Shown here piece after piece: positions 21,314 to 33,791 of a stretch of 64,000 nucleotides of DNA (positions are counted from its first letter, which is position 1; each line of letters begins with the position of its first letter). The notes beneath the pieces are model-generated. The model was not told the origin of the DNA, searched no databases, and saw only the letters and a program-made list of their open reading frames with translations. Origin of the DNA: Anaerolineaceae bacterium (GTDB taxonomy: Bacteria > Chloroflexota > Anaerolineae > Anaerolineales > E44-bin32); NCBI GenBank assembly GCA_020350285.1, contig CP070708.1, positions 3,301,970-3,365,969 of the forward strand. The letters are read 5' to 3'. Position numbers and translations under genes: made by a program.

Positions 21314-21342
21314 TTGACAGTTTGCGGTTTCTGTGCTAGAAT
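21314..21342 (+). promoter_or_regulatory. Consensus-like promoter TTGACA, 17 nt spacer, TAGAAT, upstream of the B12-photoreceptor regulator gene
   Basis: ttgaca at 21314-21319 and tagaat at 21337-21342. The -35 element lies inside the second of two contiguous 11-nt direct repeats (21299-21320). Confidence 0.6.
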
Positions 21343-21427: not shown

Positions 21428-22741
21428 ATGGCTCAAGAGCCCCATGAGATCCCGATGCTGAACATTCGAGCTGTCTCTAGGGAGACCGGTCTCAAACCAG
21501 ACACGATTCGCGCCTGGGAACGTCGGTATGGGCTTCCAATGCCTAGTAGAACACAGGGAGGCCATCGACTTTACTCCCCGCGCGATATCGCCGTTCTCAA
21601 ATGGTTGAGCGATCGACGAGAAGAGGGATTGAGCATTAGCAGGGCCGTAGATATTTGGGAAAGGTTAAGCCGCGATGGGCAAGATCCGTTAGCCACACCG
21701 CAATTTGCTAAGCCACACCAATATACTTTTCCTGCTCAAGATGTCAGCATCAGCTCTTTACGTGATGATTGGGTCCAGGCATGCATGCGTTTTGATCAAC
21801 AAGCCGCAAATCAACTCTTGAACGAAGCATTTGCGCGTTATTCTGTTGAGTATGTGTGTTTAGAACTTTTGATCAAAGGTCTGGCAAACATTGGTCATGA
21901 TTGGTATCAAGGACAGATCACCGTCCAACAAGAGCACTTCGCTTCAGAGCTAACAATCCGACGCATAGAAAGTTTATTAATGGCATCCCCCCAACCCTCA
22001 ATTCCGGGGCAGATATTGGTTATCTGCCCACCCGATGAACAGCACACCATCAGCGCTCTGCTGATCACCTTGTTCCTGCGACGGCTAGGGTGGAATGCAA
22101 TCTTTTTAGGGGCGAATGTGCCTCTGGATCGGTTAGAACAGACCATCCAAAACACAAAGCCAATATTGGTCGTTCTCACTTCACAACAGCTTCTAACCGC
22201 AGCCACAGCACTACAGGTCGCTCAACTCCTGATCGAATACGACATCCCTATCGCATTCGGAGGTCGTGTCTACAATCTTGTTCCAGGAGTGCGAGATCGG
22301 ATCCCCGGTATATTCCTGGGTGAAACCCTAGATCAAGCCCTTTCGATGATCCTTCAATTGCTTGAATATGCACCCCCCACGCCTTCTGTTGAACCGCCCG
22401 AACAAGGATACCTCCTGGCATTAGAAGAATTTCACAACCGACAAGTTCAGGTGGAAGTACAGGTGGTGCAGGGAATGGCAGCTGTCGGGATCCACCCTGA
22501 TCACCTGGAAATCGCGAATACAAACCTCACCCAGAACATCATTGCAGCGTTGACACTCGGTGATATCTCCTTTCTCAGTAGCGATATCGAATGGGTGAAA
22601 GGTCTGCTTGAGCACCAGGGAATTCCAACCAGGGGCGTGAATAGTTATCTTCAAGCTTATGCGGAAGCCGTTATGCACGAATTGGGTGATCGTGGTTCCC
22701 TGATCGCGTCTTTTCTGGTTCAACTTGTTAGGGAAGGATGA
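21428..22741 (+). CDS. MerR-family, cobalamin-binding (CarH/LitR-type) light-responsive transcriptional regulator with a C-terminal extension
   Basis: MerR HTH (LNIRAVSRETGLKPDTIRAWERRYGLP). An exact W-x9-EH motif (WYQGQITVQQEH). B12 lower-ligand region ICPPDEQHTISALLITLFLRRLGWNAIFLGANVP. About 130 extra C-terminal aa. AAGGAGG RBS. Confidence 0.8.
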   Translation: MAQEPHEIPMLNIRAVSRETGLKPDTIRAWERRYGLPMPSRTQGGHRLYSPRDIAVLKWLSDRREEGLSISRAVDIWERLSRDGQDPLATPQFAKPHQYTFPAQDVSISSLRDDWVQACMRFDQQAANQLLNEAFARYSVEYVCLELLIKGLANIGHDWYQGQITVQQEHFASELTIRRIESLLMASPQPSIPGQILVICPPDEQHTISALLITLFLRRLGWNAIFLGANVPLDRLEQTIQNTKPILVVLTSQQLLTAATALQVAQLLIEYDIPIAFGGRVYNLVPGVRDRIPGIFLGETLDQALSMILQLLEYAPPTPSVEPPEQGYLLALEEFHNRQVQVEVQVVQGMAAVGIHPDHLEIANTNLTQNIIAALTLGDISFLSSDIEWVKGLLEHQGIPTRGVNSYLQAYAEAVMHELGDRGSLIASFLVQLVREG

Positions 22742-22830
22742 TAATGGAAGCCCCTATTTAAGGAAGTTATGGGAAGAGGGTTCCACAGAAAGACGAGGGA
22801 TTGAACATGGCAAACAAAGAAGAGAGGCTC

Positions 22831-23757
22831 ATGCGTTTCATCATCACTGGCGGCACTGGTCTCATCGGCCAGGCGCTAACCTCGGATCTCCTGAAGGAGG
22901 GTCATGAGGTAATCGTACTCAGTCGCAATCCTGCCATGGGAAAGGATGTTCTTCCACAAGGCACACGTTTTGTTGGATGGGACGCCAAGACCTCGGAAAG
23001 TTGGGTTGAGTGGGCTGAAGGCGCAGCTGCGATCATTAACCTCGCTGGTGAACGGCTCGCTGGTCCGAACCCCTTCAAGCTCCGCTGGACAGATAGGCGC
23101 AAGGATCTCATCTGCGAAAGTCGCTTACATGCCGGCCAAGCGGTATCCCAAGCCGTTGAAGCGGTGAAGGAGAAGCCCAAGGTCGTCGTTCAGGCTTCGG
23201 GTATCAATTACTACCCCATAGGCGACGATATTGCGACGGAAGAAACACCACCAGGCGAGGGTTTCCTCCCACATATTTGTTTAAATTGTTGGGAGATTTC
23301 CACACAACCAGTTGAAGACCTTGGGGTACGGCGGGTTGTCATGCGAACTGGTCCTGTGCTTCATCCCAAGAGCGGTCCCCTCCCACCCATGGTGCTCCAA
23401 TCAAAGCTTTTCCTCGGCGGGCCTCTAGGAGAGGGTCAACAATGGTTCTCCTGGATACACCCGACCGATGTCGTCGGCGGTATTCGATTTCTCATCGATC
23501 ATCCGCAGGCAACTGGAGCGTTTAATCTCTGTGCGCCCAATCCGCTAACCAATGCTACTTTCAGCCAAGTATTGGGTCGTGTTCTGCGGAGACCTTCGAT
23601 CCTTCCCCTTCCTTCCTTCGTGCTCAAGCTCATATTCGGCGAGATGGCCAGCACGATGTTGACCGGCGTCCGAGCCGTACCTACCCGACTACAAGCGATG
23701 GGCTATACCTTCCGCTTTCCGGAGGCGGGGGAGGCATTGAAGGATTTATTACTGTAA
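22831..23757 (+). CDS. TIGR01777/YfcH-like NAD-dependent epimerase family protein (SDR fold plus DUF1731)
   Basis: MRFIITGGTGLIGQAL Rossmann motif and a C-terminal GYTFRFPEAGEALKDLL end. The start was trimmed to the ATG at 22831, preceded by AGAGAGG. Confidence 0.75.
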   Translation: MRFIITGGTGLIGQALTSDLLKEGHEVIVLSRNPAMGKDVLPQGTRFVGWDAKTSESWVEWAEGAAAIINLAGERLAGPNPFKLRWTDRRKDLICESRLHAGQAVSQAVEAVKEKPKVVVQASGINYYPIGDDIATEETPPGEGFLPHICLNCWEISTQPVEDLGVRRVVMRTGPVLHPKSGPLPPMVLQSKLFLGGPLGEGQQWFSWIHPTDVVGGIRFLIDHPQATGAFNLCAPNPLTNATFSQVLGRVLRRPSILPLPSFVLKLIFGEMASTMLTGVRAVPTRLQAMGYTFRFPEAGEALKDLLL

Positions 23758-23841
23758 TCATAACGATGGACTTACCAGCTTGGTTGTGCGTTGAAGCTAC
23801 AAATGAAGAGGGTAAATTAAAAACCGAAAGGAAAGAAGTAC

Positions 23842-24837
23842 ATGTCCGAGTTTGTGAATGTTAATAGAACGAATGGCGAGATCCGCGTTGAACAACTTGT
23901 CAAGAAATATCCGGGCGATGTCGTCGCGGTTGATGACATTTCCTTCCATGTAGAGAGCGGACAGATCTTCGGCTTTCTTGGCCCGAACGGCGCGGGAAAG
24001 AGCACGACGATCAAAATCTTAACCACATTGGCTCTACCGACGGAGGGCATTGCATTTGTCGGCGGCTACGATGTGGTCTGTGAGGCAGCCGATGTGCGCC
24101 GCATCGCCGGCGTTGCCCTTCAAGACATCGGATTGGATCCGATGATGAAATCCATGGAACTGCTCACCCTTCAAGGTCAACTTTTTGGTAATTCAAGGTC
24201 CGGCGCAAGGAAGCGCGCCGAAGAACTGCTTGAATTGATGAGATTGACCGATGCCAAGGATCGTCGGGTCGGTACATACAGCGGTGGTATGCGACGACGA
24301 CTCGATCTGGCATTAGCCTTGGTCCATGAACCACAGATCCTATTCCTCGATGAACCGACGACAGGTCTCGATCCTGCTGGACGTCGCGATGTCTGGGAAG
24401 AGGTTCGACGATTAAATCGCCAGCTTGGCATGACCATCTTTCTGACAACCCAGTATTTAGAAGAAGCCGATGAATTGGCTGATGTGATCGCCATCATCGA
24501 TAGGGGCAAAGTCCAAACCGAGGGCTCTCCAGCAAGGCTTAAAGCTGCTGTTGGAAACGAGTCGATTAACCTGGCCTTTGAGAGCGGGGAGATCGCCGAA
24601 AGAGCTCGCGTGGACCTAAAAGATTTAGCAGACAGAATCCAATCCGATCGCGACGTGGTCCGACTGTATGTCAGCCAAGCTGCGGAGAGGATTCCATTGG
24701 TTGTCAACCGTTTACAGGAGTTAGAACTCAATCCCATCTCCATAACGCTCACCCAACCAACCTTGGACGATGTTTTCCTGCAGGTCACAGGGCAGCGTTT
24801 AATCGCTCAAGAAGCGATGCCTGTGCAGCCTGAATAG
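23842..24837 (+). CDS. ABC transporter ATP-binding protein (DrrA-like)
   Basis: GPNGAGKSTT, YSGGMRRRLDLA, LFLDEPTTGLD and LTTQYLEEA, plus a ~100-aa C-terminal extension typical of DrrA-type NBDs. Confidence 0.9.
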   Translation: MSEFVNVNRTNGEIRVEQLVKKYPGDVVAVDDISFHVESGQIFGFLGPNGAGKSTTIKILTTLALPTEGIAFVGGYDVVCEAADVRRIAGVALQDIGLDPMMKSMELLTLQGQLFGNSRSGARKRAEELLELMRLTDAKDRRVGTYSGGMRRRLDLALALVHEPQILFLDEPTTGLDPAGRRDVWEEVRRLNRQLGMTIFLTTQYLEEADELADVIAIIDRGKVQTEGSPARLKAAVGNESINLAFESGEIAERARVDLKDLADRIQSDRDVVRLYVSQAAERIPLVVNRLQELELNPISITLTQPTLDDVFLQVTGQRLIAQEAMPVQPE

Positions 24838-24851
24838 ACATCACAACATAA

Positions 24852-25694
24852 ATGATGAGGTTTCACAATATGACTACTCAAACATCTACACAAGAAATGG
24901 CCTGTAGAACCCCGCGGCAAAGGTGGTCACCACTGCAACTCCTCCTGGTGACTTGGCGCAACTTGGTGACGATCGTCCGCACCCCGGAAGCCTTGCTGCC
25001 TCCGATCGCGATCAGTGTTTTCTTCTTGATCATCTACGATTCCACCCTAGGTAAAGCCTCTGGCTTCATCCCCAATATTGGTAGCAACAGTTATCTTGGT
25101 TTCATCCTACCGCTCTCGATTGTCAGTTCGTCATTATCTGGTGCGGGGGTCGCTGCTCAGAACCTCGTTCGGGACATTGAGAGTGGGTACTTCGACAAAC
25201 TCCTACTAACACCGATAAGCCGGGCCACATTGCTGTTCGCTCCAATCCTGGCAGGCGCGTTCATACTCGGAATGCAAGCCTCGATCGTTGTAGGTATCGG
25301 ATTGCTTCTGGGATTGCAGCCCGCCACCGGATTCCCGGGGTTGTTGGTTGTCATCGGTCTGGCGATCTTGTTAGGCACAGGATTTGCCGGCTTCACGGTC
25401 TCGGCGGCACTGGGCAGCGGTAGTGCAGCTGCAACGCAGGGTGCCAGCTTCATTTTCTTCCCTTTAACCTTCTTGGCACCCACCTTCGTTCCAATAGATT
25501 TACTTGATGGATGGCTTAAGTCAGCAGCACAAATCAACCCCATTACCTACGTGTTGGAAGCGATGCGTGGACTCATCAACCAAGGTTGGGATGGAGTTGC
25601 CCTTTGGCAAGGTGTACTTGCCTGTCTGCTCCTAGCTGGCGCGATGTATGCGTTGGCCGTCTTTGCCTTGCGAGTACGCACAAGAAGGACGTGA
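24852..25694 (+). CDS. ABC-2 type transporter permease (DrrB-like)
   Basis: About 6 TM segments, immediately downstream of the NBD gene. The alternative ATG at 24870 has a better-spaced GAGG. Confidence 0.8.
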   Translation: MMRFHNMTTQTSTQEMACRTPRQRWSPLQLLLVTWRNLVTIVRTPEALLPPIAISVFFLIIYDSTLGKASGFIPNIGSNSYLGFILPLSIVSSSLSGAGVAAQNLVRDIESGYFDKLLLTPISRATLLFAPILAGAFILGMQASIVVGIGLLLGLQPATGFPGLLVVIGLAILLGTGFAGFTVSAALGSGSAAATQGASFIFFPLTFLAPTFVPIDLLDGWLKSAAQINPITYVLEAMRGLINQGWDGVALWQGVLACLLLAGAMYALAVFALRVRTRRT

Positions 25695-25851
25695 TTGGAT
25701 TTATCCGTGGATTTGATCCAGGCCTTAGGGTTATCCGTGGAAACGCATCCGATGTAAGGTCAATCAAAGGGGATCCAAGCGTTATCAACAGGGTTAAATA
25801 AGCACGCTAGACATCTCAACAGGATCGTGTGAATGATCGCAGGTATAAACA

Positions 25852-26841
25852 ATGACTAAACATACACCCCGTATTGGTTTTCCGGTCCAAATCTTAAGCC
25901 GCCCGGATCTAAAATCTCACGACACACGTCGCTGGTCAAGCGATCCACATCTGAGAATCAGTCTTCAATATTTGCGAGAAATCTTCGACTACCTCTCAGA
26001 AGCTGACATCAACATGTATCGCTTAGCAGCTGGTTTGGTTCCCTATGCCACCCATCCCGACCTACCACAATTCCATTCTCAAATTGAGGAGTGCACAAGT
26101 GAGCTTGCTGAGACCGGTAGGGTAGCCAGAGAAAGGGACATTCGCCTCTCATTTCATCCAGGCCAATTCATCGTTCTTAATGCCCCAGATGATGATCTGG
26201 CCAGTCGATCAGCAGCTGATATTGAGGTTCAAGCTAATGTCCTTGAATCGATGGGACTGGACGATAATGCCGTGGTCGTGGTTCATATCGGTGGCGTTTA
26301 CAACAATAAAGTTGAAGCCATAAAGCGCTTCGCAGCGCGATATTCCCAACTCAGTCAAACCGCGCAACGAAGATTGGTTGTAGAGAATGACGATCAACGA
26401 TTTGGCGTCGATGATGTTTTAGTGTTGCACGATTTAGTTGGCATCCGAGTTGTCTTCGATGCTCATCATCACCTCTGTTTCAATCCCAGCGGGTTAGATC
26501 CCCAGGATGCAGTGAATTTATGTCTAGAGACATGGCAGGGATGGGAAGCGCACCCGAAAATTCATTTCTCTTCACCTCGTACGGATTGGGGATTCCGTTA
26601 CGGAAGCGAAAATGGGCGCCAATCTCCCAATTGGCGATCTCACGCCGAGTTCATCGATCCTTTCCAATTCATACAGTTTTACCAATCCATCATCGAAGTG
26701 GCGCCAGATGTCATGTTGGAAGCGAAGGCGAAGGACATCGCAGTACGGCAATTAAAGCGAGACCTGCAGAGCTATGCTCCTGACCTGGCAGATTTATTTG
26801 TTATTAATGAGGAAATGGTATTAACGAAGGATAAAGCATGA
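25852..26841 (+). CDS. uvsE: UV damage endonuclease UvdE/UvsE
   Basis: Colinear motif match to B. subtilis UvsE recalled from memory: YR..A.LVPYATHPD, RLSFHPGQF, VVVHIGG, ENDD, FD.HHH, IHFSSP, RSHA.FID, MLEAKAKD. Confidence 0.85.
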   Translation: MTKHTPRIGFPVQILSRPDLKSHDTRRWSSDPHLRISLQYLREIFDYLSEADINMYRLAAGLVPYATHPDLPQFHSQIEECTSELAETGRVARERDIRLSFHPGQFIVLNAPDDDLASRSAADIEVQANVLESMGLDDNAVVVVHIGGVYNNKVEAIKRFAARYSQLSQTAQRRLVVENDDQRFGVDDVLVLHDLVGIRVVFDAHHHLCFNPSGLDPQDAVNLCLETWQGWEAHPKIHFSSPRTDWGFRYGSENGRQSPNWRSHAEFIDPFQFIQFYQSIIEVAPDVMLEAKAKDIAVRQLKRDLQSYAPDLADLFVINEEMVLTKDKA

Positions 26842-28271
26842 AAGCAGCAATCTGGTGGATACGGCGCGATCTGCGTCTCAGCGACAATAACGCTTTACGA
26901 ACGGCATTCGAGCAAGCCGAAAAGGTCATCCCGTTGTTTGTGCTCGACCCGAAATTGCTTCGTTCACCCTATGTCGGGCAAAAACGATTGGCCTTTCTTT
27001 TCACAGGTCTGCGGCAAATGGAAGGTGACCTCATTGAACACGGCAGCACATTGATCATCCGGAAAGGTGATCCATTAGATGTTCTCCAGGCGATTACTTC
27101 TGAGACTCAGGCAGGGGCGATCTTCGCTGAAGCTGATTTCTCTGCCTACGCCCGAAGCCGTGATGATCAAATTTCCCATGAACTTCCATTGAAACTCGTT
27201 GATGGCTTAACGTATTGGCCGCCTTCGATGATCACGAAGGCTGACGGGAAACCTTATTCTGTATTTACACCATTCAGTCGTGCGTGGCGCGCCTTACCCA
27301 CCCGGAATGCATCAGATCTCCATCATACCCCACAGGACATCCCCACCCCTCTAGGATTGGCTAGCGATCAGGTACCCAACAAACCAATCCTGACGCCTGA
27401 GGCGCCATTCCAACCTGGAGAAAGGGAAGCTCAACATCGGCTTGATGCTTTCACCAAAGATAAACAGGCTCCTGTTTATCGTTATGCTGATGAACGGAAC
27501 CTATTGGACATCTCGGGTTCCTCGCGGCTCTCGCCCTATCTTCGCTTTGGTATGCTTTCAGCCTGGCAAGCTATCGATGCTGCCCACAAAGCAATTAATA
27601 CCGCCCCTACGGATGATGCTCGTGAAAGTGCTCAAACATGGCTCAGTGAATTAATCTGGCGGGAATTTTATATCCATATCCTCCATCATTTCCCACATGT
27701 GAGAACGCAAAGCTTTCGGGCAAACCTACGCACCATTCCCTGGGTGAATAACGAGCGTGATTTCACAGCCTGGTGCGATGGGCAAACAGGTTTCCCTGTC
27801 GTTGATGCTGCCATGCGTCAACTGCGCCAAACCGGATGGATGCACAATCGTGGACGTATGATCGTAGCTTCGTTTTTGGTCAAGGATCTTCTCATCGATT
27901 GGCGCTGGGGAGAGCGTTGGTTCATGCAGCATTTGATTGATGGGGATCCGGCTTCCAATAATGGAGGTTGGCAATGGACAGCCGGTACCGGTACCGACGC
28001 CGCGCCTTATTTCAGGATCTTCAATCCGGTACTTCAAAGCAAGAAGTTCGACCCCCACGGTAGATTTATCCACAAATGGGTGCCCGAATTACAAAATGTA
28101 ACCGGAAAGTTTGTCCACGAGCCCTGGAAGATGTCGAGCGAGATGCAAGAGAAAACAGGATGCGTCCTTGGGGTGGATTATCCCGCACCGATCGTGGATC
28201 ACGCCACCGCTAGAAAACGGACCTTGGAGGCATATGCTTTTGCAAGAGAAAATTCAGGATCGAAAGAATAA
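26838..28271 (+). CDS. phr: Deoxyribodipyrimidine photolyase (class I CPD photolyase family)
   Basis: WWIRRDLRLSDNNAL, SRLSPYLRFG, TGFPVVDAAMRQL...GWMHNRGRMIVASFL, DGD.ASNNGGWQW, PYFRIFNP. The ATGA overlap with uvsE suggests translational coupling. Confidence 0.92.
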   Translation: MKAAIWWIRRDLRLSDNNALRTAFEQAEKVIPLFVLDPKLLRSPYVGQKRLAFLFTGLRQMEGDLIEHGSTLIIRKGDPLDVLQAITSETQAGAIFAEADFSAYARSRDDQISHELPLKLVDGLTYWPPSMITKADGKPYSVFTPFSRAWRALPTRNASDLHHTPQDIPTPLGLASDQVPNKPILTPEAPFQPGEREAQHRLDAFTKDKQAPVYRYADERNLLDISGSSRLSPYLRFGMLSAWQAIDAAHKAINTAPTDDARESAQTWLSELIWREFYIHILHHFPHVRTQSFRANLRTIPWVNNERDFTAWCDGQTGFPVVDAAMRQLRQTGWMHNRGRMIVASFLVKDLLIDWRWGERWFMQHLIDGDPASNNGGWQWTAGTGTDAAPYFRIFNPVLQSKKFDPHGRFIHKWVPELQNVTGKFVHEPWKMSSEMQEKTGCVLGVDYPAPIVDHATARKRTLEAYAFARENSGSKE

Positions 28272-28400
28272 TTGAATGAATAAGTCAATGCCTCTCGCAA
28301 ACCATGTGGGATTCATAGCAAAGAATGCATCATGAATAAGACTTTGGGTCATGGGTTGAAGAGGTATAGGATTGAGTATAGAAGTTAAAGAGAAGACATC

Positions 28401-29876
28401 ATGAGCGGTATTGAGACTGTTTTGGTTACGGGCGCAACAGGTTATGTGGGCGGAAGGTTGATCCCTCGATTATTGTCGGAGGGCTACCGTGTTCGTGCTT
28501 TAGCTCGTAATTTAACACGAATACAAGATCGAACCTGGTTCAAGGATGTTGAGGTGATCGAAGGAGATGTCCTCGATCCAAGCACCCTGGAAACTGCGTT
28601 TGATGGCGTACAAGCTGCGTATTACCTCATCCACAGCATGATGGCAGGGCGTGAATATCACCACCGGGATCTCATGGCCGCAAGACAATTTGGATCATTC
28701 GCTGAGAAAGCGAAAATCCAAAGAATCATCTACCTTGGCGGTCTCGGTGATCCCGATGCTGATCTTTCGCGCCATCTCCGTTCACGCCAACAAACGGGTG
28801 AAGCCTTGAGAGAAGCTGGGGGGCCTGTTTTCGAATTCCGCGCAGGCGTGATTGTCGGGGCAGGAAGTATCTCCTTCGAGATGATTCGATACCTGACTGA
28901 GCGGATTCCACTCATGATCTGCCCGCGCTGGGTCTTTACACGGACTCAACCCATTCACATCTCCAACGTCCTTGACTATCTCATTGCTTCGCTCCGGCAC
29001 CCCGGAGATGAAAATCTCATTGTCGAAATTGGTGGACCAGAAATCATGAGTTACGGCGATATGCTTCAAGGTTATGCGAACGTGCGCGGTCTCAAACGTT
29101 GGATACTTCCGGTCCCAGTGCTCACACCCAGGCTTTCCTCGTATTGGGTTCACTGGGTTACCCCGATTCCGGCCGCAGTTGCTCGCCCCCTGATTGAAGG
29201 TTTACGCGATGAAGTCTTGGTCCGATCCGAAACAGCTCGTAATCTCTTTCCCGAAATTAGCCTTATCGATTATCAGGCCGCGGTTCGTAAAGCTTTGGAG
29301 GCTCTACAGGCCAGCGAGGTGGATACCTCTGCAAGAGATGTCGATGCCGTTCATCAGGGTGATGTCGTCCCTGTTAAGTTGACCACCAAGGAAGGCATGA
29401 TCATTGAACGTCGTGCGCTTGAGGTTGAAGCTCCCCCACATGTTGTATTCAAAGCATTCACGGGTTTAGGTGGCGAGCGTGGCTGGCTTTATGCGAATTG
29501 GTTATGGCGCATCAGAGGGGCCATTGATCGCCTGTTTGGTGGTGTCGGTCTTCGCCGTCATCGTCGCGATCCCGACCATCTTCGCGTTGGCGATGTGCTC
29601 GACTTCTACCAAGTTGAACACTTAGAGCCTGTTCGCATGATGCGCCTGCGAGCTGAGATGAGGCTTCCAGGACGAGCATGGCTTCAATTTGAAACTCATC
29701 CATTGGCAGAGGATCGAAGCTTCTTGGTTCAAACTGCGATGTTCGCACCGAAAGGGCTTATCGGATTGATCTATTGGTACCTGCTTTACCCGATCCATGC
29801 ACAGGTTTTCTCCGGTTTAATATCCGGAGTAGCTAATGAAGCAGTCAAGATGAAGCATGAGGCAGTATCAGGCTAA
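28401..29876 (+). CDS. NAD(P)-binding SDR/NmrA-like protein with a C-terminal DUF2867-like domain
   Basis: VLVTGATGYVGGRLIPRLL Rossmann motif and a ~180-aa C-terminal domain. The architecture as I recall it is SDR plus DUF2867. Confidence 0.7.
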   Translation: MSGIETVLVTGATGYVGGRLIPRLLSEGYRVRALARNLTRIQDRTWFKDVEVIEGDVLDPSTLETAFDGVQAAYYLIHSMMAGREYHHRDLMAARQFGSFAEKAKIQRIIYLGGLGDPDADLSRHLRSRQQTGEALREAGGPVFEFRAGVIVGAGSISFEMIRYLTERIPLMICPRWVFTRTQPIHISNVLDYLIASLRHPGDENLIVEIGGPEIMSYGDMLQGYANVRGLKRWILPVPVLTPRLSSYWVHWVTPIPAAVARPLIEGLRDEVLVRSETARNLFPEISLIDYQAAVRKALEALQASEVDTSARDVDAVHQGDVVPVKLTTKEGMIIERRALEVEAPPHVVFKAFTGLGGERGWLYANWLWRIRGAIDRLFGGVGLRRHRRDPDHLRVGDVLDFYQVEHLEPVRMMRLRAEMRLPGRAWLQFETHPLAEDRSFLVQTAMFAPKGLIGLIYWYLLYPIHAQVFSGLISGVANEAVKMKHEAVSG

Positions 29877-29896
29877 ATTTTAAAGGAAGATAAATC

Positions 29897-30277
29897 ATGG
29901 AATCAACTAAAACAACATCAACAACCTTGAATACTACGATCTATCGTGGGGTTACCGCACTTGCACTCATCGGTTTCCTGATCATGTTTTTCTCCATATC
30001 CACCGCATTTATCGTCGGTGACTTCTCTGCAGAGGGTAGCGTTATTCTCTCCCTCGCTTGGGGAAAAGTCTCCTTGATCGATGTATATATTGGTTTCCTC
30101 ATCTTTTCCGGCTGGATCATCTACCGAGAACGCTCTATTGGGCGATCATTGATTTGGGTGATTTTTATGATGATTTTCGGAAACATGACGGCCTGTTTGT
30201 ATATTCTGTTTGCGTTACGGCAAAGTCGTGGAGATTGGTCGCGATTTTGGCTGGGGCAGCGGACAGAGGCAAGCTGA
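29897..30277 (+). CDS. Small 4-TM membrane protein, DUF1475-like
   Basis: 126 aa containing W.KVSLIDVYIGFLIFSGWIIYRE...WVIFMMIFGNMTACLYILFAL. AAAGGAAG RBS. The family assignment is from memory. Confidence 0.5.
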   Translation: MESTKTTSTTLNTTIYRGVTALALIGFLIMFFSISTAFIVGDFSAEGSVILSLAWGKVSLIDVYIGFLIFSGWIIYRERSIGRSLIWVIFMMIFGNMTACLYILFALRQSRGDWSRFWLGQRTEAS

Positions 30278-30333
30278 AAGTATTGGTCTACAAAAAGAAA
30301 TGTTCAAATAAAAGAGAAGCACGAGGATATACG

Positions 30334-31185
30334 ATGACAATTAAGATTGTGACAGACAGCACCAGCGATCTCTCACAGACCATTGCAGATCAACATGACA
30401 TCACCATTGTTCCCCTTTACATCAATTTCGGTGATCAAAGTTATCTCGATGGCGTGGAACTTACGCGTGAAGAATTCTATAAGATGCTTCCAGATCACCC
30501 AACGCCACCATCAACATCAGTTCCAAGTGTTGAAATGTTTCAGAACATCTATCAGAAATTGAGTGCCGAGGGAGCGGATCAAATCCTTTCGATTCATATT
30601 GCGGGCAGCCTCAGCGCGACAGCTGACATCGCCCAGTCCACCTTGGAAACACTAACCGATGTGCCTGTAACGGTATTTGATGCCGGCCAGATCAGCTTAG
30701 GAACCGGTTTATTAGCCATTGCGGCCGCACAAGCCGCAGTTTCGGGGATGACGATGGAAGAAATCGTGTCCATGTTAAAAGATAAGGCGTTACGGACATA
30801 CTCATTCGCCGCGTTGGATACGCTTGAATACCTACGCCGGAGCGGTCGCGCCAGCAGATTTCGGTCCACGGTTGGGTCGTTGTTGAGCATTAAACCTCTG
30901 CTAAGCATGCATAATGGAAAGATGGATGTCGACAGAGTGCGCACAGAAAAAGGGGCAATCGAATGGTTGATGGATCACCTCGCCAACCTCCATCCATTTG
31001 AGGAGATCGCACTAATTCACACCAATGCGCCTGATAAAGTCGAAGCTTTTCGGCAACGTGCCCATCCATTCCTTCCAAGTGGCAAAGAACCGATCATCGC
31101 GGAGGTGACACCGATCATTGGTACGCACGTGGGCCCTGGCGCAGTGGGTTTCTCTTGCATATCAAAAGGAATTTCAAATCTATAA
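30334..31185 (+). CDS. DegV-family fatty-acid-binding protein
   Basis: IKIVTDSTSDL N-terminus, S.PS...F and LSATADIAQ. The start was trimmed to the ATG at 30334 because the 5' part of the track ORF overlaps the previous gene in another frame. Confidence 0.85.
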   Translation: MTIKIVTDSTSDLSQTIADQHDITIVPLYINFGDQSYLDGVELTREEFYKMLPDHPTPPSTSVPSVEMFQNIYQKLSAEGADQILSIHIAGSLSATADIAQSTLETLTDVPVTVFDAGQISLGTGLLAIAAAQAAVSGMTMEEIVSMLKDKALRTYSFAALDTLEYLRRSGRASRFRSTVGSLLSIKPLLSMHNGKMDVDRVRTEKGAIEWLMDHLANLHPFEEIALIHTNAPDKVEAFRQRAHPFLPSGKEPIIAEVTPIIGTHVGPGAVGFSCISKGISNL

Positions 31186-31214
31186 ATCGAAAAGAAAGTA
31201 AAAGGAGATTTAAC

Positions 31215-31994
31215 ATGAACAATGACAAACTTAGGCAGGCGATCGTCGTTGTGATGGTTATCGCCACCATCGTGGTCAACGGTCTAGCCACCGCGCTGCC
31301 CCTCAATGGGCAGACGACAGGAGAGATTTCGGACCGTTTTGAAGTATTTTTCGTTCCAGCTGGTTACGTTTTTACCATCTGGGGTCTTATTTACCTGGGT
31401 CTTGGCGCGTATGCGATTTTCCAGGCAATCCCCGCGCAATCAGACAATCAGCGTCTGCGTCGCATTGGGGTTCCATTTACCATCGCTTCTCTAGCCAACA
31501 TGGCCTGGATCTTCCTCTGGCATTACGAACAATTCCCTTTGACTTTGGTCGCGATGCTTACACTTTTGATTTCGTTGATCGTTATCTATCTGCGATTGGA
31601 TATCGGTCGTGCGGAGGTTTCCACAGCTGAGAGATGGTCTGTGCATGTTCCATTCAGCATTTACCTCGGATGGATCACCGTGGCGACCATCGCCAACGTG
31701 ACCTCACTACTGGATTACATAAATTGGAGTGGATGGGGAATAAACCCTGAAGTGTGGGCAGTGATTATGTTGATCGCTGGACTAGCGATTGCACTAGCAA
31801 TGAGCCTGACGCGAGGGGATGTCGCTTACTTGCTGGTCCTCATATGGGCATTTGTAGGAATCGCCATGAAACACCAAGGAGCCGCGCTCGTTGCACCCGC
31901 GGCTTGGATCACCTCGGGATTGGTCTTGGTCGTGCTTGTGGTAGGCGTTTTCCTGAAATCTCGATCTCTGGCGACGCCTGAATCCACCGGATGA
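31215..31994 (+). CDS. TspO/MBR-like tryptophan-rich membrane protein (long form)
   Basis: 259 aa, Trp-rich, about 7 TM segments. FFVPAGYVFTIWGLIYLGLGAYAI resembles the TspO TM1-TM2 motif. AAAGGAG RBS at the ATG at 31215. Confidence 0.4.
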   Translation: MNNDKLRQAIVVVMVIATIVVNGLATALPLNGQTTGEISDRFEVFFVPAGYVFTIWGLIYLGLGAYAIFQAIPAQSDNQRLRRIGVPFTIASLANMAWIFLWHYEQFPLTLVAMLTLLISLIVIYLRLDIGRAEVSTAERWSVHVPFSIYLGWITVATIANVTSLLDYINWSGWGINPEVWAVIMLIAGLAIALAMSLTRGDVAYLLVLIWAFVGIAMKHQGAALVAPAAWITSGLVLVVLVVGVFLKSRSLATPESTG

Positions 31995-32146
31995 GATGTC
32001 GGTCATATCACGATCGGCAAATCAAGGGCTGAACTCGAGGGATACTCACTTGAGTCTATACGGCTACGGGGTTTCCATCCTTGGAGTTCAGCTTCTCAAG
32101 AATTGAATCACATCGAAATCATCAACTAAATCATGAAAGGAGAGAG

Positions 32147-32491
32147 ATGATGATAGTGACGGTATTGAAGATCATTGCTGCGATAGCTACGATCGCCACA
32201 GGTTTGGTGTCTTTGATCCGACCCACCGCAATTACTGGCTTCACAGGATTGAGTGTGACAGGACCGCGCGGGGTCACCGAGATTCGATCCATACTTGGCG
32301 CTTTGTTTGTGGCCCTAGGCGCTACACCGCTTCTGCTGAACGTTCCTGCTACCTATCAGATGTTGGGAATAGCCTACCTCGTTATAGGCTTTGTACGGCT
32401 TGTGTCCATGATCGTCGATAAATCAGTTGAGCCATCGAATGTTATCAGCTTGATCGTTGAGATCGTTTTCGGCGTCATATTAGTTATCTAA
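32147..32491 (+). CDS. Small membrane protein, DUF4345-like
   Basis: 114 aa with 4 hydrophobic segments. AAGGAGAGAG precedes the ATG at 32147. Confidence 0.45.
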   Translation: MMIVTVLKIIAAIATIATGLVSLIRPTAITGFTGLSVTGPRGVTEIRSILGALFVALGATPLLLNVPATYQMLGIAYLVIGFVRLVSMIVDKSVEPSNVISLIVEIVFGVILVI

Positions 32492-32592
32492 GCTACCCAT
32501 CACACCTTAATCAACAATTATGCAGAGAGAAAGATGTGAAGAAAGTCGTAAGCCACAAACTGCAAGCTACTTGTGGGCTCTAGGAAGGGTTC

Positions 32593-33267
32593 ATGGAGAA
32601 ATTACAAGAGTTGTTAGAGGAATTTCGAAGCGTTGTCGCAGGTAGACAGAAGATCATAGATTCGATTCTCCCTCCTCTCACGTTTGTCATCGTGAACGAA
32701 CTTGCTGATGTAAATTACGCCTTGTGGTCGTCACTCGGTATGGCTTTGGTGTTCACGATGTTCCGTCTATTCAAGGGAGAATCTGTTGGGTACGCCGTGG
32801 GAGGTTTAGGAGGTGTTATCGCAGCAATCGCTATTGTGAAGCTGCTGGGCAGAACAGAGGGCTTTTTTGTGCCGGCACTCGTCTCGGGGTCGCTGACATT
32901 TGTCCTTTGTCTCGTAAGCATCATCATCAAACGACCGCTTGTGGCTTTTACCAGTCACATCACACGCAGATGGCCGTTAGGCTGGTATTGGCACCCGAAG
33001 GTCGTCGCGGCTTATCAAGAGGTCACCTTCTTCTGGACCATATTCTTTGCTTTACGTGTATTGGTTCAAATTGCCATCCTCCAAGGTGGAACTAGCAACT
33101 TCTTCGCCATCATAAATATCATCTTGGGTTGGCCAGCACTTATCGTACTCCTTGCCGGAAGTTATCTTTATGGATCATGGAGACTTCGACGACTCCAAGG
33201 TCCGAGTATTGAAGAGTACGATCGTGGGGATCCTCCACCATGGACGGGCCAATTACGTGGCTTTTAG
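32593..33267 (+). CDS. Integral membrane protein, possibly DUF3159-like
   Basis: 224 aa with about 5 TM segments and an N-terminal IIDSILPPLTFVIVN segment. The family call is tentative. Confidence 0.5.
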   Translation: MEKLQELLEEFRSVVAGRQKIIDSILPPLTFVIVNELADVNYALWSSLGMALVFTMFRLFKGESVGYAVGGLGGVIAAIAIVKLLGRTEGFFVPALVSGSLTFVLCLVSIIIKRPLVAFTSHITRRWPLGWYWHPKVVAAYQEVTFFWTIFFALRVLVQIAILQGGTSNFFAIINIILGWPALIVLLAGSYLYGSWRLRRLQGPSIEEYDRGDPPPWTGQLRGF

Positions 33268-33329
33268 TGATCTCCGAGAGTATCTTTATGGAGTAGGTTT
33301 ATGCTTGAACTCGAGCGAAGGACACTTTA

Positions 33330-33791
33330 ATGAATCATCTAAATCCTGAGAAGCTACACACCCGTTTTCTAAACGGAACAACAGACGCTGGACCACGCAT
33401 TCCGCGCTGCTATACGTTGACCCACTCGGATACCACGGGTGAACTCTTCTTAACGATTGGTCCTACCTATGATCAGGAGCAGATCTCAGGCTGGTACACA
33501 CGATTCATGCGCGACGAGGTGTTGGCGGCTTGGGAAATGGATGAAGAAGGTATGTCCCTCCATGTCCATGCTCATGTCAGCGGTGGATTGATCCTCGGTT
33601 CCGCTAAATGGCGAGAAAAGATCTTTCGCCGACACATGCCTTTGGTCTTAGAAGCTTTTCGGTATGGGGATCGCGCATTGGTGGTGAAATATCCAGAGTT
33701 GGATCAAGCACCGCTTGTGATCCATTTCCACGCCCCCACCCCAAAGGATGATCTGATTGAAACTTGGGGCACGCTTGGTGATTACAGATAG
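33330..33791 (+). CDS. STAY-GREEN (SGR) family protein, putative Mg-dechelatase homolog
   Basis: Motif series PRCYTLTHSD, GWYTRFMRDEVLAAW, MSLHVHAHVSGG, MPLVLEAFRYGD, YPELDQAPLVIHFH. It is colinear with the plant SGR core as I recall it: YTLTHSD, GWY..LQRDEVVAEW, LHVHCHISGG, LPVVL.AF.HGD, PEL..A.V.VYFHS. Confidence 0.8.
   Translation: MNHLNPEKLHTRFLNGTTDAGPRIPRCYTLTHSDTTGELFLTIGPTYDQEQISGWYTRFMRDEVLAAWEMDEEGMSLHVHAHVSGGLILGSAKWREKIFRRHMPLVLEAFRYGDRALVVKYPELDQAPLVIHFHAPTPKDDLIETWGTLGDYR

What the first reader, a model, noticed from the sequence alone, without database searches (positions are those of the whole stretch)
21428..33791. Thirteen co-directional genes headed by a B12 photoreceptor: candidate integrated light, UV and phototoxic-tetrapyrrole protection island
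Seen: thirteen genes lie on one strand with no intervening opposite-strand gene. In order they are:
- the CarH/LitR-like regulator;
- a YfcH-like epimerase;
- a DrrAB-like ABC exporter (2 genes);
- UvdE and CPD photolyase (ATGA-coupled);
- SDR+DUF2867;
- a DUF1475-like membrane protein;
- DegV;
- a TspO-like protein;
- two small or medium membrane proteins;
- a STAY-GREEN homolog.
Established: CarH/LitR regulons commonly include photolyase and photoprotective genes. UvdE and photolyase repair UV photoproducts. TspO proteins bind tetrapyrroles, and photo-oxidative porphyrin degradation has been reported for them. SGR removes Mg from chlorophyll a. Inference: the block may be a coordinated response in which light triggers three things. 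These are DNA photorepair, membrane and lipid adjustment (DegV, SDR, DUF proteins), and detoxification or export of photosensitising tetrapyrroles (TspO-like, SGR, DrrAB-like pump). This would suit a probably non-phototrophic bacterium living beside phototrophs. The combination, and the roles of the DUF1475-like, DUF4345-like and 224-aa membrane proteins, appear undescribed. Intergenic gaps of 85-157 nt imply several transcription units, so co-regulation is unproven. The 11-nt repeat operator is seen only at the regulator's own promoter.
Basis: partly seen in the sequence, partly recalled or inferred. Interest (0 to 1): 0.8.

Follow-up and report, generated by a model that had tools for sequence, protein, structure and literature searches.

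The report
Light-switched photoprotection gene cluster with Mg-dechelatase
A non-phototrophic-type Anaerolineae bacterium carries a 13-gene array headed by a vitamin-B12 light sensor, and comparison with about 80 other species suggests that a chlorophyll Mg-removing enzyme of unknown bacterial role belongs to this light-response gene set.

Summary
Thirteen co-directional genes occupy 21428-33791, and every family call is confirmed or only refined.

The array most likely is the local form of a CarH-type, B12-dependent light regulon. The promoter at 21314-21342 has its -35 inside tandem 11-bp TnnACA repeats, as in characterised CarH operators.

Support from 78 more distant SGR loci in other species:
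- 34 carry CarH, photolyase, heliorhodopsin, UvdE or RudS within 10 kb of SGR.
- Gene order is shuffled, so this is not plain synteny.
- The same operator motif lies directly upstream of SGR, AhpC>SGR, HeR>SGR, DegV and SDR-DUF2867.
- It occurs in 12/92 such regions versus 4/338 others (p=4e-6).

- The regulator is a 437-aa MerR-B12 protein. Its extra C-terminal domain superposes on photocobilins.
- The 224-aa protein is DUF3159.
- The TspO assignment is weak.
- UvdE, the ABC permease and DUF3159 are not conserved partners.
- The divergent fasciclin gene probably belongs to the regulon.
- Several of these families were already reported as heliorhodopsin neighbours.

Tetrapyrrole detoxification is plausible but unproven. 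I rate it a new variant of a known kind, interest about 0.65.

The parts
21299..21320 (+). Two tandem 11-bp direct repeats (taatTtgACAa, atatTtgACAg) forming the carH operator. The second repeat contains the -35 hexamer.
   Evidence: Sequence read. Unique exact repeat in the window. Position-weight-matrix score 20.8 bits, the top hit in the window. Fits the published CarH repeat nnnnTnnACAn with -35 TTGACA embedded (PMC9304148).
21314..21342 (+). Sigma-70-type promoter of the array: TTGACA, 17 nt, TAGAAT, with TG extension.
   Evidence: 11 of 12 matches, the best in 19.5-35.5 kb. The -35 and -10 hexamers are largely kept in relative L003.
21277..21298 (-). Two 11-bp repeats on the opposite strand (atacTtgACAt, ctctAagACAt) that directly abut the carH repeats. 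The first contains the -35 of a divergent promoter (TTGACA-17-TAATAT, 21294 to 21266) facing the fasciclin gene.
   Evidence: 13.3 bits, second-best in the window but below the chance level for a whole-window scan. Divergent second operators are clear in L007, L033, L051 and L061.
19860..21233 (-). Gene for a protein with three fasciclin (FAS1) domains, divergent from carH.
   Evidence: Pfam Fasciclin 8e-114. Promoter and repeats as above. A FAS1-domain gene in L072 has a 24-bit operator directly upstream.
21428..22741 (+). Light-sensing regulator of 437 aa: MerR HTH, B12-binding four-helix bundle, Rossmann domain, and a C-terminal helical domain (about residues 300-437).
   Evidence: Pfam. 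RAWERRY, Wx9EH and E-x-H motifs. TtCarH 5C8D/3WHP E about 6e-31. AF2 model pLDDT 88.8. It superposes on whole photocobilins 8J2X/8J2Y/8J2W, TM 0.77-0.83 normalised by target.
22801..23757 (+). YfcH-family NAD-dependent epimerase/oxidoreductase (Epimerase + DUF1731).
   Evidence: TIGR01777 283.7 bits, above the 207 cut-off. Directly follows carH in L007, L033, L051, L061 and L087, and faces a divergent short-CarH gene in L038. Found in 15 of 78 distant SGR loci.
23842..25694 (+). ABC-2 type exporter pair: ATPase 23842-24837 and permease 24852-25694.
   Evidence: Pfam. Weak conservation. 70-72% identical ATPases lie next to SGR only in L072 and L078, and the permease only in L072.
25852..26841 (+). 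UvdE UV-damage endonuclease, translationally coupled (ATGA) to phr.
   Evidence: Pfam 3.5e-51. Overlap confirmed. Absent from the closest relatives L001/L005 and present in only 3 of 78 distant loci. This fits a lineage-specific insertion.
26838..28271 (+). Class I CPD photolyase.
   Evidence: Pfam. Best PDB matches 1OWL/1TEZ/1DNP. Found in 11 of 78 distant SGR loci, always co-directional with SGR.
28401..29876 (+). NmrA/SDR-like reductase fused to DUF2867.
   Evidence: Pfam. Found in 13 of 78 distant loci, often SGR>SDR-DUF2867>MFS. Operator-like sites upstream in L059, L072 and L078.
29897..30277 (+). Small membrane protein, DUF1475-like (126 aa).
   Evidence: Pfam 30.7 bits versus a cut-off of 22.3, N-terminal half of the model only. 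Found in 14 of 78 distant loci.
30334..31185 (+). DegV-family fatty-acid-binding protein.
   Evidence: Pfam 1.2e-74. Start set. Found in 13 of 78 distant loci. Operator directly upstream in L033, L051, L056 and L061.
31215..31994 (+). Membrane protein of 259 aa with 7-8 helices and a weak TspO/MBR-like core.
   Evidence: Pfam 23.3 bits, under the cut-off of 24. Most relatives carry PF03073. AF2 pLDDT 82. Foldseek hit BcTSPO 4RYM, probability 0.87, E 1.2, TM 0.56. Found in 7 of 78 distant loci, including directly next to SGR in L040 and L082.
32081..32491 (+). DUF4345 small membrane protein.
   Evidence: Pfam 33.7 bits. Found in 7 of 78 distant loci.
32593..33267 (+). DUF3159 membrane protein (224 aa).
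   Evidence: Pfam 9e-35. Found in only 1 of 78 distant SGR loci, but sits as DegV>DUF3159>DUF1295>CarH in L087.
33330..33791 (+). STAY-GREEN homologue, predicted Mg-dechelatase.
   Evidence: Pfam 1.3e-46. 81% identical over its full length to PDB 7Y5Y, the Anaerolineae SM23_63 enzyme with demonstrated Mg-dechelatase activity (PMC8531759, PMC11006732). H32, D34, D62, R26, Y28, T29 and D114 are conserved.
33882..33910 (.). 12-bp GC-rich hairpin that closes the array. It is terminator-like on both strands, with a weak U-tract on the + strand.
   Evidence: dG -25.1 kcal/mol, z -4.66.

Best explanation
The block is this Anaerolineaceae genome's version of a B12-dependent, CarH-type light regulon, here strung into one co-directional array behind a single operator-controlled promoter.

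Proposed mechanism (inferred from the CarH family; none of it is tested here):
- In the dark, the AdoCbl-loaded regulator oligomerises and sits on the 11-bp TnnACA repeats that cover the -35 hexamer at 21314-21319. It probably also covers the abutting opposite-strand repeats over the fasciclin-gene promoter.
- Near-UV to green light photolyses AdoCbl, the oligomer falls off, and RNA polymerase transcribes carH and, by read-through, most or all downstream genes.
- The regulator's extra C-terminal helical domain occupies the place of the bilin-binding globin domain of photocobilins. It may add a second input from a linear tetrapyrrole or long-wavelength light.

Proposed output, in three parts:
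- Repair of UV photoproducts, by UvdE and class I CPD photolyase.
- Membrane and lipid adjustment against photo-oxidation, by DegV, the two SDR-type reductases and the small DUF membrane proteins.
- Handling of a photosensitising Mg-tetrapyrrole, by the SGR Mg-dechelatase, possibly with the TspO-like protein and a transporter.

How far each step is supported:
- Shown by sequence and comparison: the identities, the operator-promoter architecture, and the conserved linkage of SGR to carH and its operator in other species.
- Inferred only: light-dependence, the operon extent in this genome, and the substrate of SGR.
For: Regulator:
- MerR HTH with RAWERRY, the Wx9EH motif and the His ligand motif.
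- TtCarH is the best sequence match in PDB.
- NCBIfam CarH model E 1e-40.

Operator and promoter in the window:
- Two tandem 11-bp repeats fit the published nnnnTnnACAn consensus, with -35 TTGACA embedded (PMC9304148).

Unbiased neighbourhood test:
- I took 80 GTDB species-level SGR loci.
- After SGR itself, the most recurrent de novo ORF families outside the syntenic relatives are MFS, CarH, ABC ATPase, photolyase, SDR-DUF2867, DegV, heliorhodopsin, YfcH and a FAD oxidase.
- 34 of 78 distant loci have CarH, Phr, HeR, UvdE or RudS within 10 kb. That is 33 of 66 bacterial-labelled loci.
- Housekeeping flanks (response regulator, kinase, HMG-CoA reductase) are kept in only one distant locus.
- Gene order differs among loci. 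One arrangement is CarH>YfcH>148-aa>FADox>PHR>AhpC>SGR>SDR-DUF2867>MFS with a divergent DegV-FolE-DUF1295-DUF4345-DUF1475 operon. Others are DegV>HeR>CarH>DUF1475>SGR and SGR>CarH>TspO-like.

Operator motif in other species:
- A matrix built only from sites flanking carH finds tandem sites directly upstream of SGR in L034, L038, L051 and L061. In L059 the site upstream of SDR-DUF2867 also lies 78 nt before the SGR match.
- It also finds them upstream of AhpC>SGR (L007, L022, L033, L046), HeR>SGR (L070, weaker in L042), DegV, FADox, SDR-DUF2867 and a FAS1 gene.
- At 15 bits or more, 12 of 92 intergenic regions upstream of cluster families have a site, versus 4 of 338 others (Fisher p=4e-6).
- In genome CP070811, SGR lies 1.9 Mb from carH yet keeps a 24.7-bit operator plus a TTGACA-17-TATAAT promoter.

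SGR enzyme:
- It is 81% identical to the enzyme with proven Mg-dechelatase activity, and the catalytic residues are intact.

Transcription through the array:
- No + strand terminator lies inside the array, and a strong hairpin follows it.
Against: - In this window the operator occurs only at the head. None of the 56-157-nt internal gaps has one, so co-regulation of genes 5-13 depends on a 12.4-kb read-through that is not shown.
- A weak promoter-like site precedes uvdE.
- The window's own operator site (20.8 bits) was part of the training set. By itself it is near what a 128-kb scan gives by chance, since the shuffle maxima average 16 bits and reach 22. Its weight comes from its position and from conservation.
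- UvdE, the ABC permease and DUF3159 are rarely linked to SGR elsewhere.
- About 30 of 78 SGR loci show no cluster family within reach. 11 of 12 archaeal-labelled loci show no light marker (CarH, Phr, HeR, UvdE or RudS), and only L069 (RudS) and L082 (TspO-like) carry any cluster family at all.
- The B12 motif has Ser where the classic motif has Gly/Pro.
- Pheophytin and pheophorbide are still photosensitisers, so dechelation alone is not detoxification. This rests on established plant biochemistry and my own knowledge.
Confidence: 0.7

Rival explanations
1. Membrane-lipid and photo-oxidative-stress regulon without any tetrapyrrole role. The cluster would be the heliorhodopsin-associated DegV/DUF1295-type lipid-remodelling and antioxidant set. 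SGR would act on an unknown non-chlorophyll substrate, its Mg-dechelatase activity being promiscuous.
For: - DegV, DUF1295, AhpC, photolyase, cobalamin-binding proteins and ABC/MFS transporters were already found enriched next to heliorhodopsins and interpreted as lipid remodelling and oxidative stress.
- The same families recur here.
- The literature calls the bacterial activity promiscuous and the physiological role unknown (PMC8531759).
- The TspO assignment is weak.
Against: - The closest characterised homologue is a very active, broad-range Mg-dechelatase acting on Chl a/b/c, chlorophyllide and protochlorophyllide, and all catalytic residues are kept.
- SGR is directly adjacent to the TspO-like gene in L040 and L082, the latter labelled archaeal, and to transporters in many loci.
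- No alternative substrate is known.
Confidence: 0.25
2. A syntenic run of several independent transcription units. Only carH, and perhaps yfcH and the ABC pair, would be light-controlled here, and the rest would be expressed from their own promoters. The co-directionality would be historical.
For: - Gaps of 84-157 nt occur before the ABC genes, uvdE, SDR-DUF2867, DUF4345 and DUF3159.
- There is no internal operator.
- Gene content varies among close relatives: uvdE is missing, and an extra adh_short SDR or DUF1295 is inserted.
- In other species the same families are split over two or three operator-bearing units.
Against: - In those other species each unit carries its own operator, so selection keeps them light-controlled. 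Loss of all internal operators here is most simply explained by fusion into one unit.
- There is no terminator in the gaps and no convincing internal promoter.
Confidence: 0.3
3. The organism is a phototroph, or makes (bacterio)chlorophyll, and SGR serves ordinary pigment turnover.
For: SGR acts on chlorophylls. A few Chloroflexota outside the classical Chloroflexia are phototrophs (my own knowledge).
Against: - No photosynthesis or chlorophyll-biosynthesis gene was seen among the ORFs of 150 aa or more that I annotated across the 64-kb window.
- The literature treats the SM23_63 relative and bacterial SGR carriers in general as non-photosynthetic.
- SGR homologues occur in 562 loci, including Bathyarchaeia and Thorarchaeota.
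Confidence: 0.05

Closest known systems
CarH/LitR class I AdoCbl photoreceptor regulons (Thermus thermophilus, Bacillus megaterium, Myxococcus xanthus)
   Same: - MerR HTH with RxWERRY.
- Wx9EH plus a His-ligand B12 domain.
- Autoregulated promoter whose -35 TTGACA lies inside tandem 11-bp TnnACA direct repeats.
- Divergent second promoter.
- Photoprotective targets.
   Different: - The regulator is about 140 aa longer, with an extra C-terminal helical domain.
- The targets are not carotenoid genes. They are photolyase, UvdE, reductases, DegV, small membrane proteins and an SGR Mg-dechelatase.
- Only two good repeats occur per strand.
Photocobilins and photoglobin-coupled B12 sensors (SasPcob 8J2W/8J2X, AbDPcob 8J2Y; Zhang et al. 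2024; Schneider et al. 2022)
   Same: - The predicted structure of residues about 105-437 superposes on the whole B12-domain-plus-globin unit (TM 0.77-0.83 normalised by target).
- A MerR-HTH + B12 + photoglobin architecture was predicted bioinformatically.
   Different: - There is no detectable sequence similarity in the C-terminal domain.
- The bilin-binding residues could not be mapped.
- No MerR-fused member has been characterised.
- Here the module drives a defined regulon.
Pseudomonas class II LitR light regulon (phrB, SDR, FAD oxidoreductase, ufaM, folE, cryB, RudS)
   Same: - A MerR-family light regulator sits next to photolyase, an SDR and a FAD oxidoreductase.
- FolE and RudS also appear in the Anaerolineae loci.
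   Different: - Class II LitR lacks the B12 Rossmann domain and works with a LOV protein.
- That regulon contains no SGR, DegV, TspO-like or DUF1475/4345/3159 genes.
Heliorhodopsin gene neighbourhoods (Chazan et al. 2021 preprint; Bulzu et al. 2021 preprint)
   Same: DegV, DUF1295, AhpC, photolyase, UvdE, cobalamin-binding proteins and ABC/MFS transporters are reported there. DUF2867, DUF3159 and TspO are in the supplement.
   Different: - The window has no heliorhodopsin.
- Staygreen is not mentioned in the main texts or in the stored part of the supplement.
- No operator or regulator was defined in those studies.
AbSGR-h, Mg-dechelatase homologue of Anaerolineae bacterium SM23_63 (PDB 7Y5Y)
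   Same: 81% identity, the same length, the same catalytic residues, and the same syntenic gene cluster (locus L001).
   Different: Only biochemistry and structure are published. The gene's genomic and regulatory context, and its physiological role, were left open.

Membership tests
CarH/LitR class I (AdoCbl-dependent MerR photoreceptor) | N-terminal MerR-type HTH with the RxWERRY recognition helix | tested here: met
   MerR_1 2.3e-14. The sequence IRAWERRYGLP is present.
CarH/LitR class I (AdoCbl-dependent MerR photoreceptor) | Wx9EH motif in the four-helix bundle that caps the adenosyl group | tested here: met
   HDWYQGQITVQQEHF. W159, E169 and H170 are invariant in 41 homologues.
CarH/LitR class I (AdoCbl-dependent MerR photoreceptor) | Classic D/ExHx2G/P B12 motif supplying the lower axial His | tested here: inconclusive
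   DEQHTIS has E-x-H, with H206 invariant, but Ser in place of Gly/Pro.
CarH/LitR class I (AdoCbl-dependent MerR photoreceptor) | Operator of tandem 11-bp direct repeats nnnnTnnACAn overlapping the -35 or -10 element | tested here: met
   Repeats at 21299-21320 with the -35 inside the second one. The same design is found upstream of carH homologues in L007, L033, L046, L051, L054, L061 and L072.
CarH/LitR class I (AdoCbl-dependent MerR photoreceptor) | Two-module architecture (DNA-binding domain plus B12-binding domain, about 280-330 aa) | tested here: not met
   437 aa, with an additional confidently folded helical domain at about residues 300-437. Short 327-332-aa paralogues exist in L011, L038 and L087.
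CarH/LitR class I (AdoCbl-dependent MerR photoreceptor) | AdoCbl- and dark-dependent oligomerisation and DNA binding, released by light | not testable with these tools
   Needs protein biochemistry.
Photocobilin / photoglobin-coupled B12 photoreceptor | B12-binding domain followed by a helical globin-like domain packed against it | tested here: met
   The top Foldseek hits cover the full target length: 8J2X, 8J2Y and 8J2W, E about 8e-16, TM 0.77-0.83 normalised by target, rmsd 3.4-4.2 A over about 340 columns.
Photocobilin / photoglobin-coupled B12 photoreceptor | Sequence homology of the C-terminal domain to photoglobin | tested here: not met
   A profile of the C-terminal domain (A5) finds no photocobilin chain in PDB at E up to 10. 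No Pfam hit.
Photocobilin / photoglobin-coupled B12 photoreceptor | Biliverdin-binding residues (Asp270 and Trp296 of SasPcob) and actual bilin binding | not tested
   No residue-level structural alignment was available. D379 and W389 are conserved in the family, but their equivalence is unknown.
STAY-GREEN Mg-dechelatase | Staygreen domain with catalytic H32, D34 and D62 and structural R26, Y28, T29 and D114 | tested here: met
   Pfam 158.5 bits. All of these residues are present, and all but D114 (at least 90% conserved) are invariant, in alignment A1. 81% identity to 7Y5Y.
STAY-GREEN Mg-dechelatase | Mg-dechelating activity on chlorophyll(ide)s | not testable with these tools
   Shown only for the SM23_63 orthologue (PMC8531759, PMC11006732).
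TspO/MBR | Passes the Pfam TspO_MBR gathering score | tested here: not met
   23.3 bits against a cut-off of 24. No NCBIfam hit. Many relatives do carry PF03073.
TspO/MBR | Five-helix TspO fold of about 150-170 aa | tested here: inconclusive
   The 259-aa model has 7-8 helices. The only meaningful PDB hit is BcTSPO 4RYM: probability 0.87, E 1.2, TM 0.56 normalised by target.
UvdE / class I CPD photolyase | Full-length domain matches to characterised enzymes | tested here: met
   UvdE 174.5 bits. Photolyase matches 1OWL/1TEZ/1DNP at E 5e-104 to 5e-98.
Heliorhodopsin-associated DegV/DUF1295/DUF2177 neighbourhood | A heliorhodopsin gene in the cluster | tested here: not met
   tblastn with HeR finds nothing in the window. 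HeR is present in 12 of 78 related SGR loci.

The most novel reading that the evidence does not exclude
In Chloroflexota the STAY-GREEN Mg-dechelatase would be a dedicated light-response enzyme.
- Its gene would be switched on by a B12 photoreceptor of the MerR-photocobilin type, possibly sensing both B12 and bilin.
- In other species it would be co-transcribed with heliorhodopsin.
- Its job would be to dismantle or hand over for export Mg-tetrapyrroles (chlorophylls from neighbouring phototrophs) that would otherwise photosensitise the membrane.

This would give bacterial SGR its missing physiological role. It would supply a natural output for a MerR-fused photocobilin and a new functional partner for heliorhodopsin.
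Probability: 0.3. Interest if true: 0.85.

Novelty: new variant of a known kind. Interest (0 to 1): 0.65.

Why it matters
Three open questions become directly testable.

1. Role of bacterial SGR. The papers on the Anaerolineae SGR homologue state that the physiological role of bacterial SGR homologues is unknown. A conserved link to a B12 light switch, photolyase and heliorhodopsin predicts light induction and a phenotype under light plus chlorophyll.

2. Natural output of photocobilin-type sensors. MerR-fused B12-plus-globin-like photoreceptors have been predicted but never tied to target genes. Here there is a defined operator consensus (TTGACAATATn tandem repeats) and a candidate regulon.

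3. Function of heliorhodopsin. The direct HeR>SGR gene pairs add a concrete candidate partner.

The work also gives light-linked context to several DUF families (DUF2867, DUF1475, DUF4345, DUF3159, DUF1295).

Tried and rejected
- Exact-sequence look-ups of the window's SGR and of P0121 found no contig on record. I could therefore not read the rest of the source genome or test for photosynthesis genes or a heliorhodopsin elsewhere in it.
- Whole-window operator scan: nothing convincing outside 21273-21320. The next hit (19605, 12 bits, at the MFS start) is below chance level.
- Rfam: only a tRNA in the window; no riboswitch or other RNA element in the island.
- Sequence searches of the regulator's C-terminal domain found nothing, either alone or as a profile. 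Only the fold comparison was informative.
- The TspO-like protein has no PDB sequence match and only a marginal fold match.
- The uvdE upstream gap is not conserved in relative L001. I did not interpret the TTATCCGTGGA repeat there.
- Obata et al. 2019, Dey et al. 2022 and Sumi et al. 2020 are not in the held library. I cannot exclude that one of them comments on the SGR gene neighbourhood.
- I considered a metagenome scan anchored on carH and did not run it. The best 80 hits would mostly be close syntenic relatives.

Full report
**1. What is in the sequence**

Thirteen ORFs lie on the + strand between 21428 and 33791 without a credible opposite-strand gene.
- a MerR + B12-binding regulator;
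- a YfcH-family epimerase (TIGR01777, above its cut-off);
- an ABC ATPase and an ABC-2 permease;
- UvdE;
- a photolyase whose best solved relatives are class I CPD photolyases;
- an NmrA/SDR-DUF2867 fusion;
- a half-length DUF1475-like membrane protein;
- DegV;
- a weak TspO_MBR match (23.3 bits against a gathering score of 24);
- DUF4345;
- a Staygreen protein (1.3e-46).

The uvdE/phr ATGA overlap is real. DegV starts at 30334 and the TspO-like gene at 31215. The 259-aa TspO-like product is identical to a deposited Anaerolineaceae MAG protein on a 3.4-Mb contig.

Intergenic gaps range from -4 to 157 nt. No terminator-like site falls in a + strand gap. A 12-bp GC hairpin follows SGR.

Flanking genes are a three-FAS1 fasciclin gene and an MFS gene on the left. 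On the right are a receiver and a GAF-GAF histidine kinase, then mevalonate-pathway genes.

**2. The head of the array**

The carH promoter is the best sigma-70 match in 16 kb: TTGACA-17-TAGAAT with a TG extension. Its -35 lies inside the second of two tandem 11-bp repeats, taatTtgACAa and atatTtgACAg, at 21299-21320. These fit the experimentally defined CarH repeat nnnnTnnACAn, in which the -35 TTGACA is typically embedded (PMC9304148).

Two further 11-bp units abut them on the opposite strand (21277-21298). The first contains the -35 of a divergent TTGACA-17-TAATAT promoter that faces the fasciclin gene. There is probably a second, leftward target.

**3. The regulator is not a plain CarH**

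It has the RxWERRY helix, the Wx9EH motif and the His ligand. TtCarH is its best sequence match in PDB. However, it is 437 aa long, about 140 aa more than CarH.

An AlphaFold2 model built on 41 homologues (pLDDT 88.8) shows a confidently folded helical domain after the Rossmann fold. The top structural matches are the three photocobilin entries 8J2X, 8J2Y and 8J2W. They are covered over their whole length, with TM 0.77-0.83 normalised by target and rmsd 3.4-4.2 A over about 340 columns.

Photocobilins are B12 domains fused to a globin-like domain that binds biliverdin (PMC10979010). A MerR-HTH + B12 + photoglobin architecture was predicted bioinformatically (PMC8717448).

The C-terminal domain shows no sequence similarity to the solved photocobilins, even as a profile. 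Bilin binding is therefore an open possibility, not a finding.

This long form (about 435-460 aa) is the predominant one next to SGR in other Anaerolineae. Short paralogues also exist.

**4. Is the block functionally linked or just syntenic?**

The closest relatives (SM23_63 and two other MAGs) are syntenic far beyond the island, so they say little. I therefore scanned one genome per GTDB species with an SGR alignment. This gave 562 relatives, of which the 80 best loci were kept, with up to 10 kb on each side.

tblastn with the window's proteins, together with a de novo clustering of all ORFs, gave the same picture:
- After SGR itself, the most recurrent families in the 78 non-syntenic loci are an MFS transporter, CarH, ABC ATPase, photolyase, SDR-DUF2867, DegV, heliorhodopsin, YfcH, a FAD amine-oxidase-type protein, DUF1295, DUF1475 and AhpC.
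- The housekeeping neighbours of the window survive in one locus only.
- Counts among the 78 loci: CarH 17, YfcH 15, DUF1475 14, AhpC 14, DegV 13, SDR-DUF2867 13, HeR 12, Phr 11, DUF1295 10, TspO-like 7, DUF4345 7, UvdE 3, DUF3159 1, ABC permease 1.
- Half of the bacterial-labelled loci (33 of 66) have a light-sensing or light-damage marker within reach. Only 1 of 12 archaeal-labelled loci does.

Gene orders differ. A common form is CarH>YfcH>148-aa>FADox>PHR>(AhpC)>SGR>SDR-DUF2867>MFS, with a divergent DegV-FolE-DUF1295-DUF4345-DUF1475(-TspO-like) operon. Other forms are DegV>HeR>CarH>DUF1475>SGR, SGR>CarH>TspO-like, and SGR>DegV..CarH>YfcH.

Linkage that survives rearrangement is the classical signature of functional coupling. 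Nine of the thirteen genes pass this test. The ABC pair, UvdE and DUF3159 pass weakly or not at all, although DUF3159 sits in a DegV>DUF3159>DUF1295>CarH>YfcH cluster in CP070818.

**5. Is SGR under the same switch?**

I built a position matrix from 34 repeats flanking carH homologues (consensus TTGACAATATn). I then scanned 1.14 Mb of loci with it.

Non-training tandem sites, each followed at 17 nt by a -10-like hexamer, lie in these places:
- directly upstream of SGR in L034, L038, L051 and L061; in L059 the site upstream of SDR-DUF2867 also lies 78 nt before the SGR match;
- upstream of AhpC>SGR in L007, L022, L033 and L046;
- upstream of HeR>SGR in L070 (weaker in L042);
- upstream of DegV, FADox, SDR-DUF2867, an ABC operon and a FAS1-domain gene.

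Restricted to intergenic regions and excluding carH flanks, 12 of 92 regions upstream of cluster families have a site of at least 15 bits. Only 4 of 338 other regions do (Fisher p=4e-6). Those four precede a FAS1 gene, a DUF4397-like secreted protein, an M50 protease-MFS pair and an FtsX-ABC>SGR>CarH unit.

In the complete genome CP070811, carH and SGR are 1.9 Mb apart, yet SGR keeps a 24.7-bit operator. This argues that SGR is a regulon member in trans, not merely a neighbour.

Caveats:
- The matrix contains the -35 consensus.
- Mononucleotide shuffles of 64 kb reach 16 bits on average, so single sites are not significant on their own. The argument rests on position and enrichment.

**6. The SGR enzyme**

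The window's protein is 81% identical over its full length to PDB 7Y5Y. This is the SM23_63 homologue, whose Mg-dechelatase activity exceeds that of the plant enzyme and extends to Chl b/c and protochlorophyllide (PMC8531759 and PMC11006732). H32, D34, D62, R26, Y28, T29 and D114 are all kept.

[quoted passage not shown] No held paper combines Staygreen/SGR with heliorhodopsin, CarH or LitR.

**7. How it most likely works**

- Dark: the AdoCbl-bound regulator oligomer occupies the repeats over both -35 hexamers.
- Light: the Co-C bond is photolysed, the regulator is released and transcription starts.

In this genome the units that are separate and individually operator-controlled in other species appear to have been fused into one 12.4-kb array. 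It has one operator, and an uvdE gene has been inserted in front of phr. Read-through is inferred from the absence of terminators and of internal operators. It is not shown.

The outputs are DNA photorepair (firm), lipid and membrane protection (family-level inference) and Mg-tetrapyrrole processing (enzyme identity firm, physiological substrate unknown).

Dechelation alone does not abolish photosensitisation. If the tetrapyrrole reading is right, SGR must feed a further step. Candidates are export (MFS or ABC genes are its most frequent neighbours), TspO-type photo-oxidative breakdown, or hydrolysis by the alpha/beta-hydrolase that recurs beside it in other loci. These are hypotheses.

**8. 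Comparison with what is known**

- The regulatory design is that of class I CarH/LitR, with a photocobilin-like extension.
- The target set overlaps the Pseudomonas class II LitR regulon: phrB, SDR, FAD oxidoreductase, folE and RudS.
- It also overlaps the families reported around heliorhodopsins: DegV, DUF1295, AhpC, photolyase, cobalamin-binding proteins and ABC/MFS transporters, with DUF2867, DUF3159 and TspO in the supplement.

Three things are new relative to the literature I could search:
- SGR as a conserved, operator-bearing member;
- the HeR>SGR gene pairs;
- an operator consensus and candidate regulon for a MerR-fused photocobilin-type sensor.

**9. Verdict**

The feature is a new variant of a known kind of system, a CarH-type light regulon. 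Interest is moderate to high, because it turns the unknown role of bacterial SGR, and the outputs of photocobilin-type regulators and heliorhodopsins, into specific experiments.

Main uncertainties are the operon extent in this genome, whether the C-terminal domain binds a bilin, the real substrate of SGR, and the genome's pigment-biosynthesis status. I could not test the last point.

Noticed in passing
L041, L042, L045, L047, L062, L070, L071, L077 (HeR ends 16-86 nt before SGR); L053; L056: A heliorhodopsin gene lies directly upstream of the SGR homologue and runs in the same direction in eight species-level Chloroflexota loci. It follows SGR in L053, and L056 has DegV>HeR>CarH>DUF1475>SGR. 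L070 has a 24-bit CarH-type operator before HeR. The window itself has no heliorhodopsin. No held paper links the two families.
   Followed up: partly
window 19860-21298 (- strand); L072:3347-4089: The divergent fasciclin (3x FAS1) gene has a TTGACA-17-TAATAT promoter whose -35 lies in an 11-bp repeat abutting the carH operator. Four contiguous 11-bp units result, two facing each way. A FAS1-domain gene in L072 carries a strong operator. A secreted adhesion-type protein under light control is unexpected.
   Followed up: partly
window 25701-25711 and 25731-25741: A perfect direct repeat TTATCCGTGGA occurs twice, 30 nt apart, in the 157-nt gap before uvdE. The gap is not conserved in the closest relative, which lacks uvdE. 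It may be the binding site of another regulator or a scar of the insertion.
   Followed up: partly
window 34835-37090 (- strand): A receiver protein and a GAF-GAF-HisKA_3 histidine kinase converge on SGR. They are retained next to SGR in the close relatives and in the more distant L028. GAF domains can bind tetrapyrroles, but nothing here tests that.
   Followed up: no
L023, L035, L045, L054, L057, L081 and others: An alpha/beta-hydrolase family (about 330 aa) recurs next to SGR in 8-11 loci, always co-directional. Plant pheophytinase is also an alpha/beta-hydrolase, so a dephytylase role is conceivable but untested.
   Followed up: no
L011, L038, L087:6462-7445: Short (327-332 aa) CarH paralogues lack the C-terminal domain. 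In L011 and L038 the short form is the regulator next to the cluster. In L087 short and long forms flank the same DegV-DUF3159-DUF1295 unit.
   Followed up: no
L012, L022, L051, L059, L061 (about 135-aa ORF, e.g. L061:9348-9752); L011:4651-5454: Small secreted proteins with DUF4397-like repeats (by eye, not profile-tested) sit divergently next to SGR or AhpC. They have operator-like sites of their own: 21.9 bits in L061 and 22.6 bits in L011.
   Followed up: no
window 37239-41440: HMG-CoA reductase, an HMG-CoA-synthase-like protein, a thiolase and a DUF35/OB-fold protein form an archaeal-style mevalonate-pathway set just beyond the two-component genes. The set is syntenic in close relatives only.
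   Followed up: no
window 48370-51069 (- strand): An 899-aa protein made almost entirely of PAS domains, with no recognisable output domain, lies in a stretch of lower G+C (0.45 against about 0.50).
   Followed up: no
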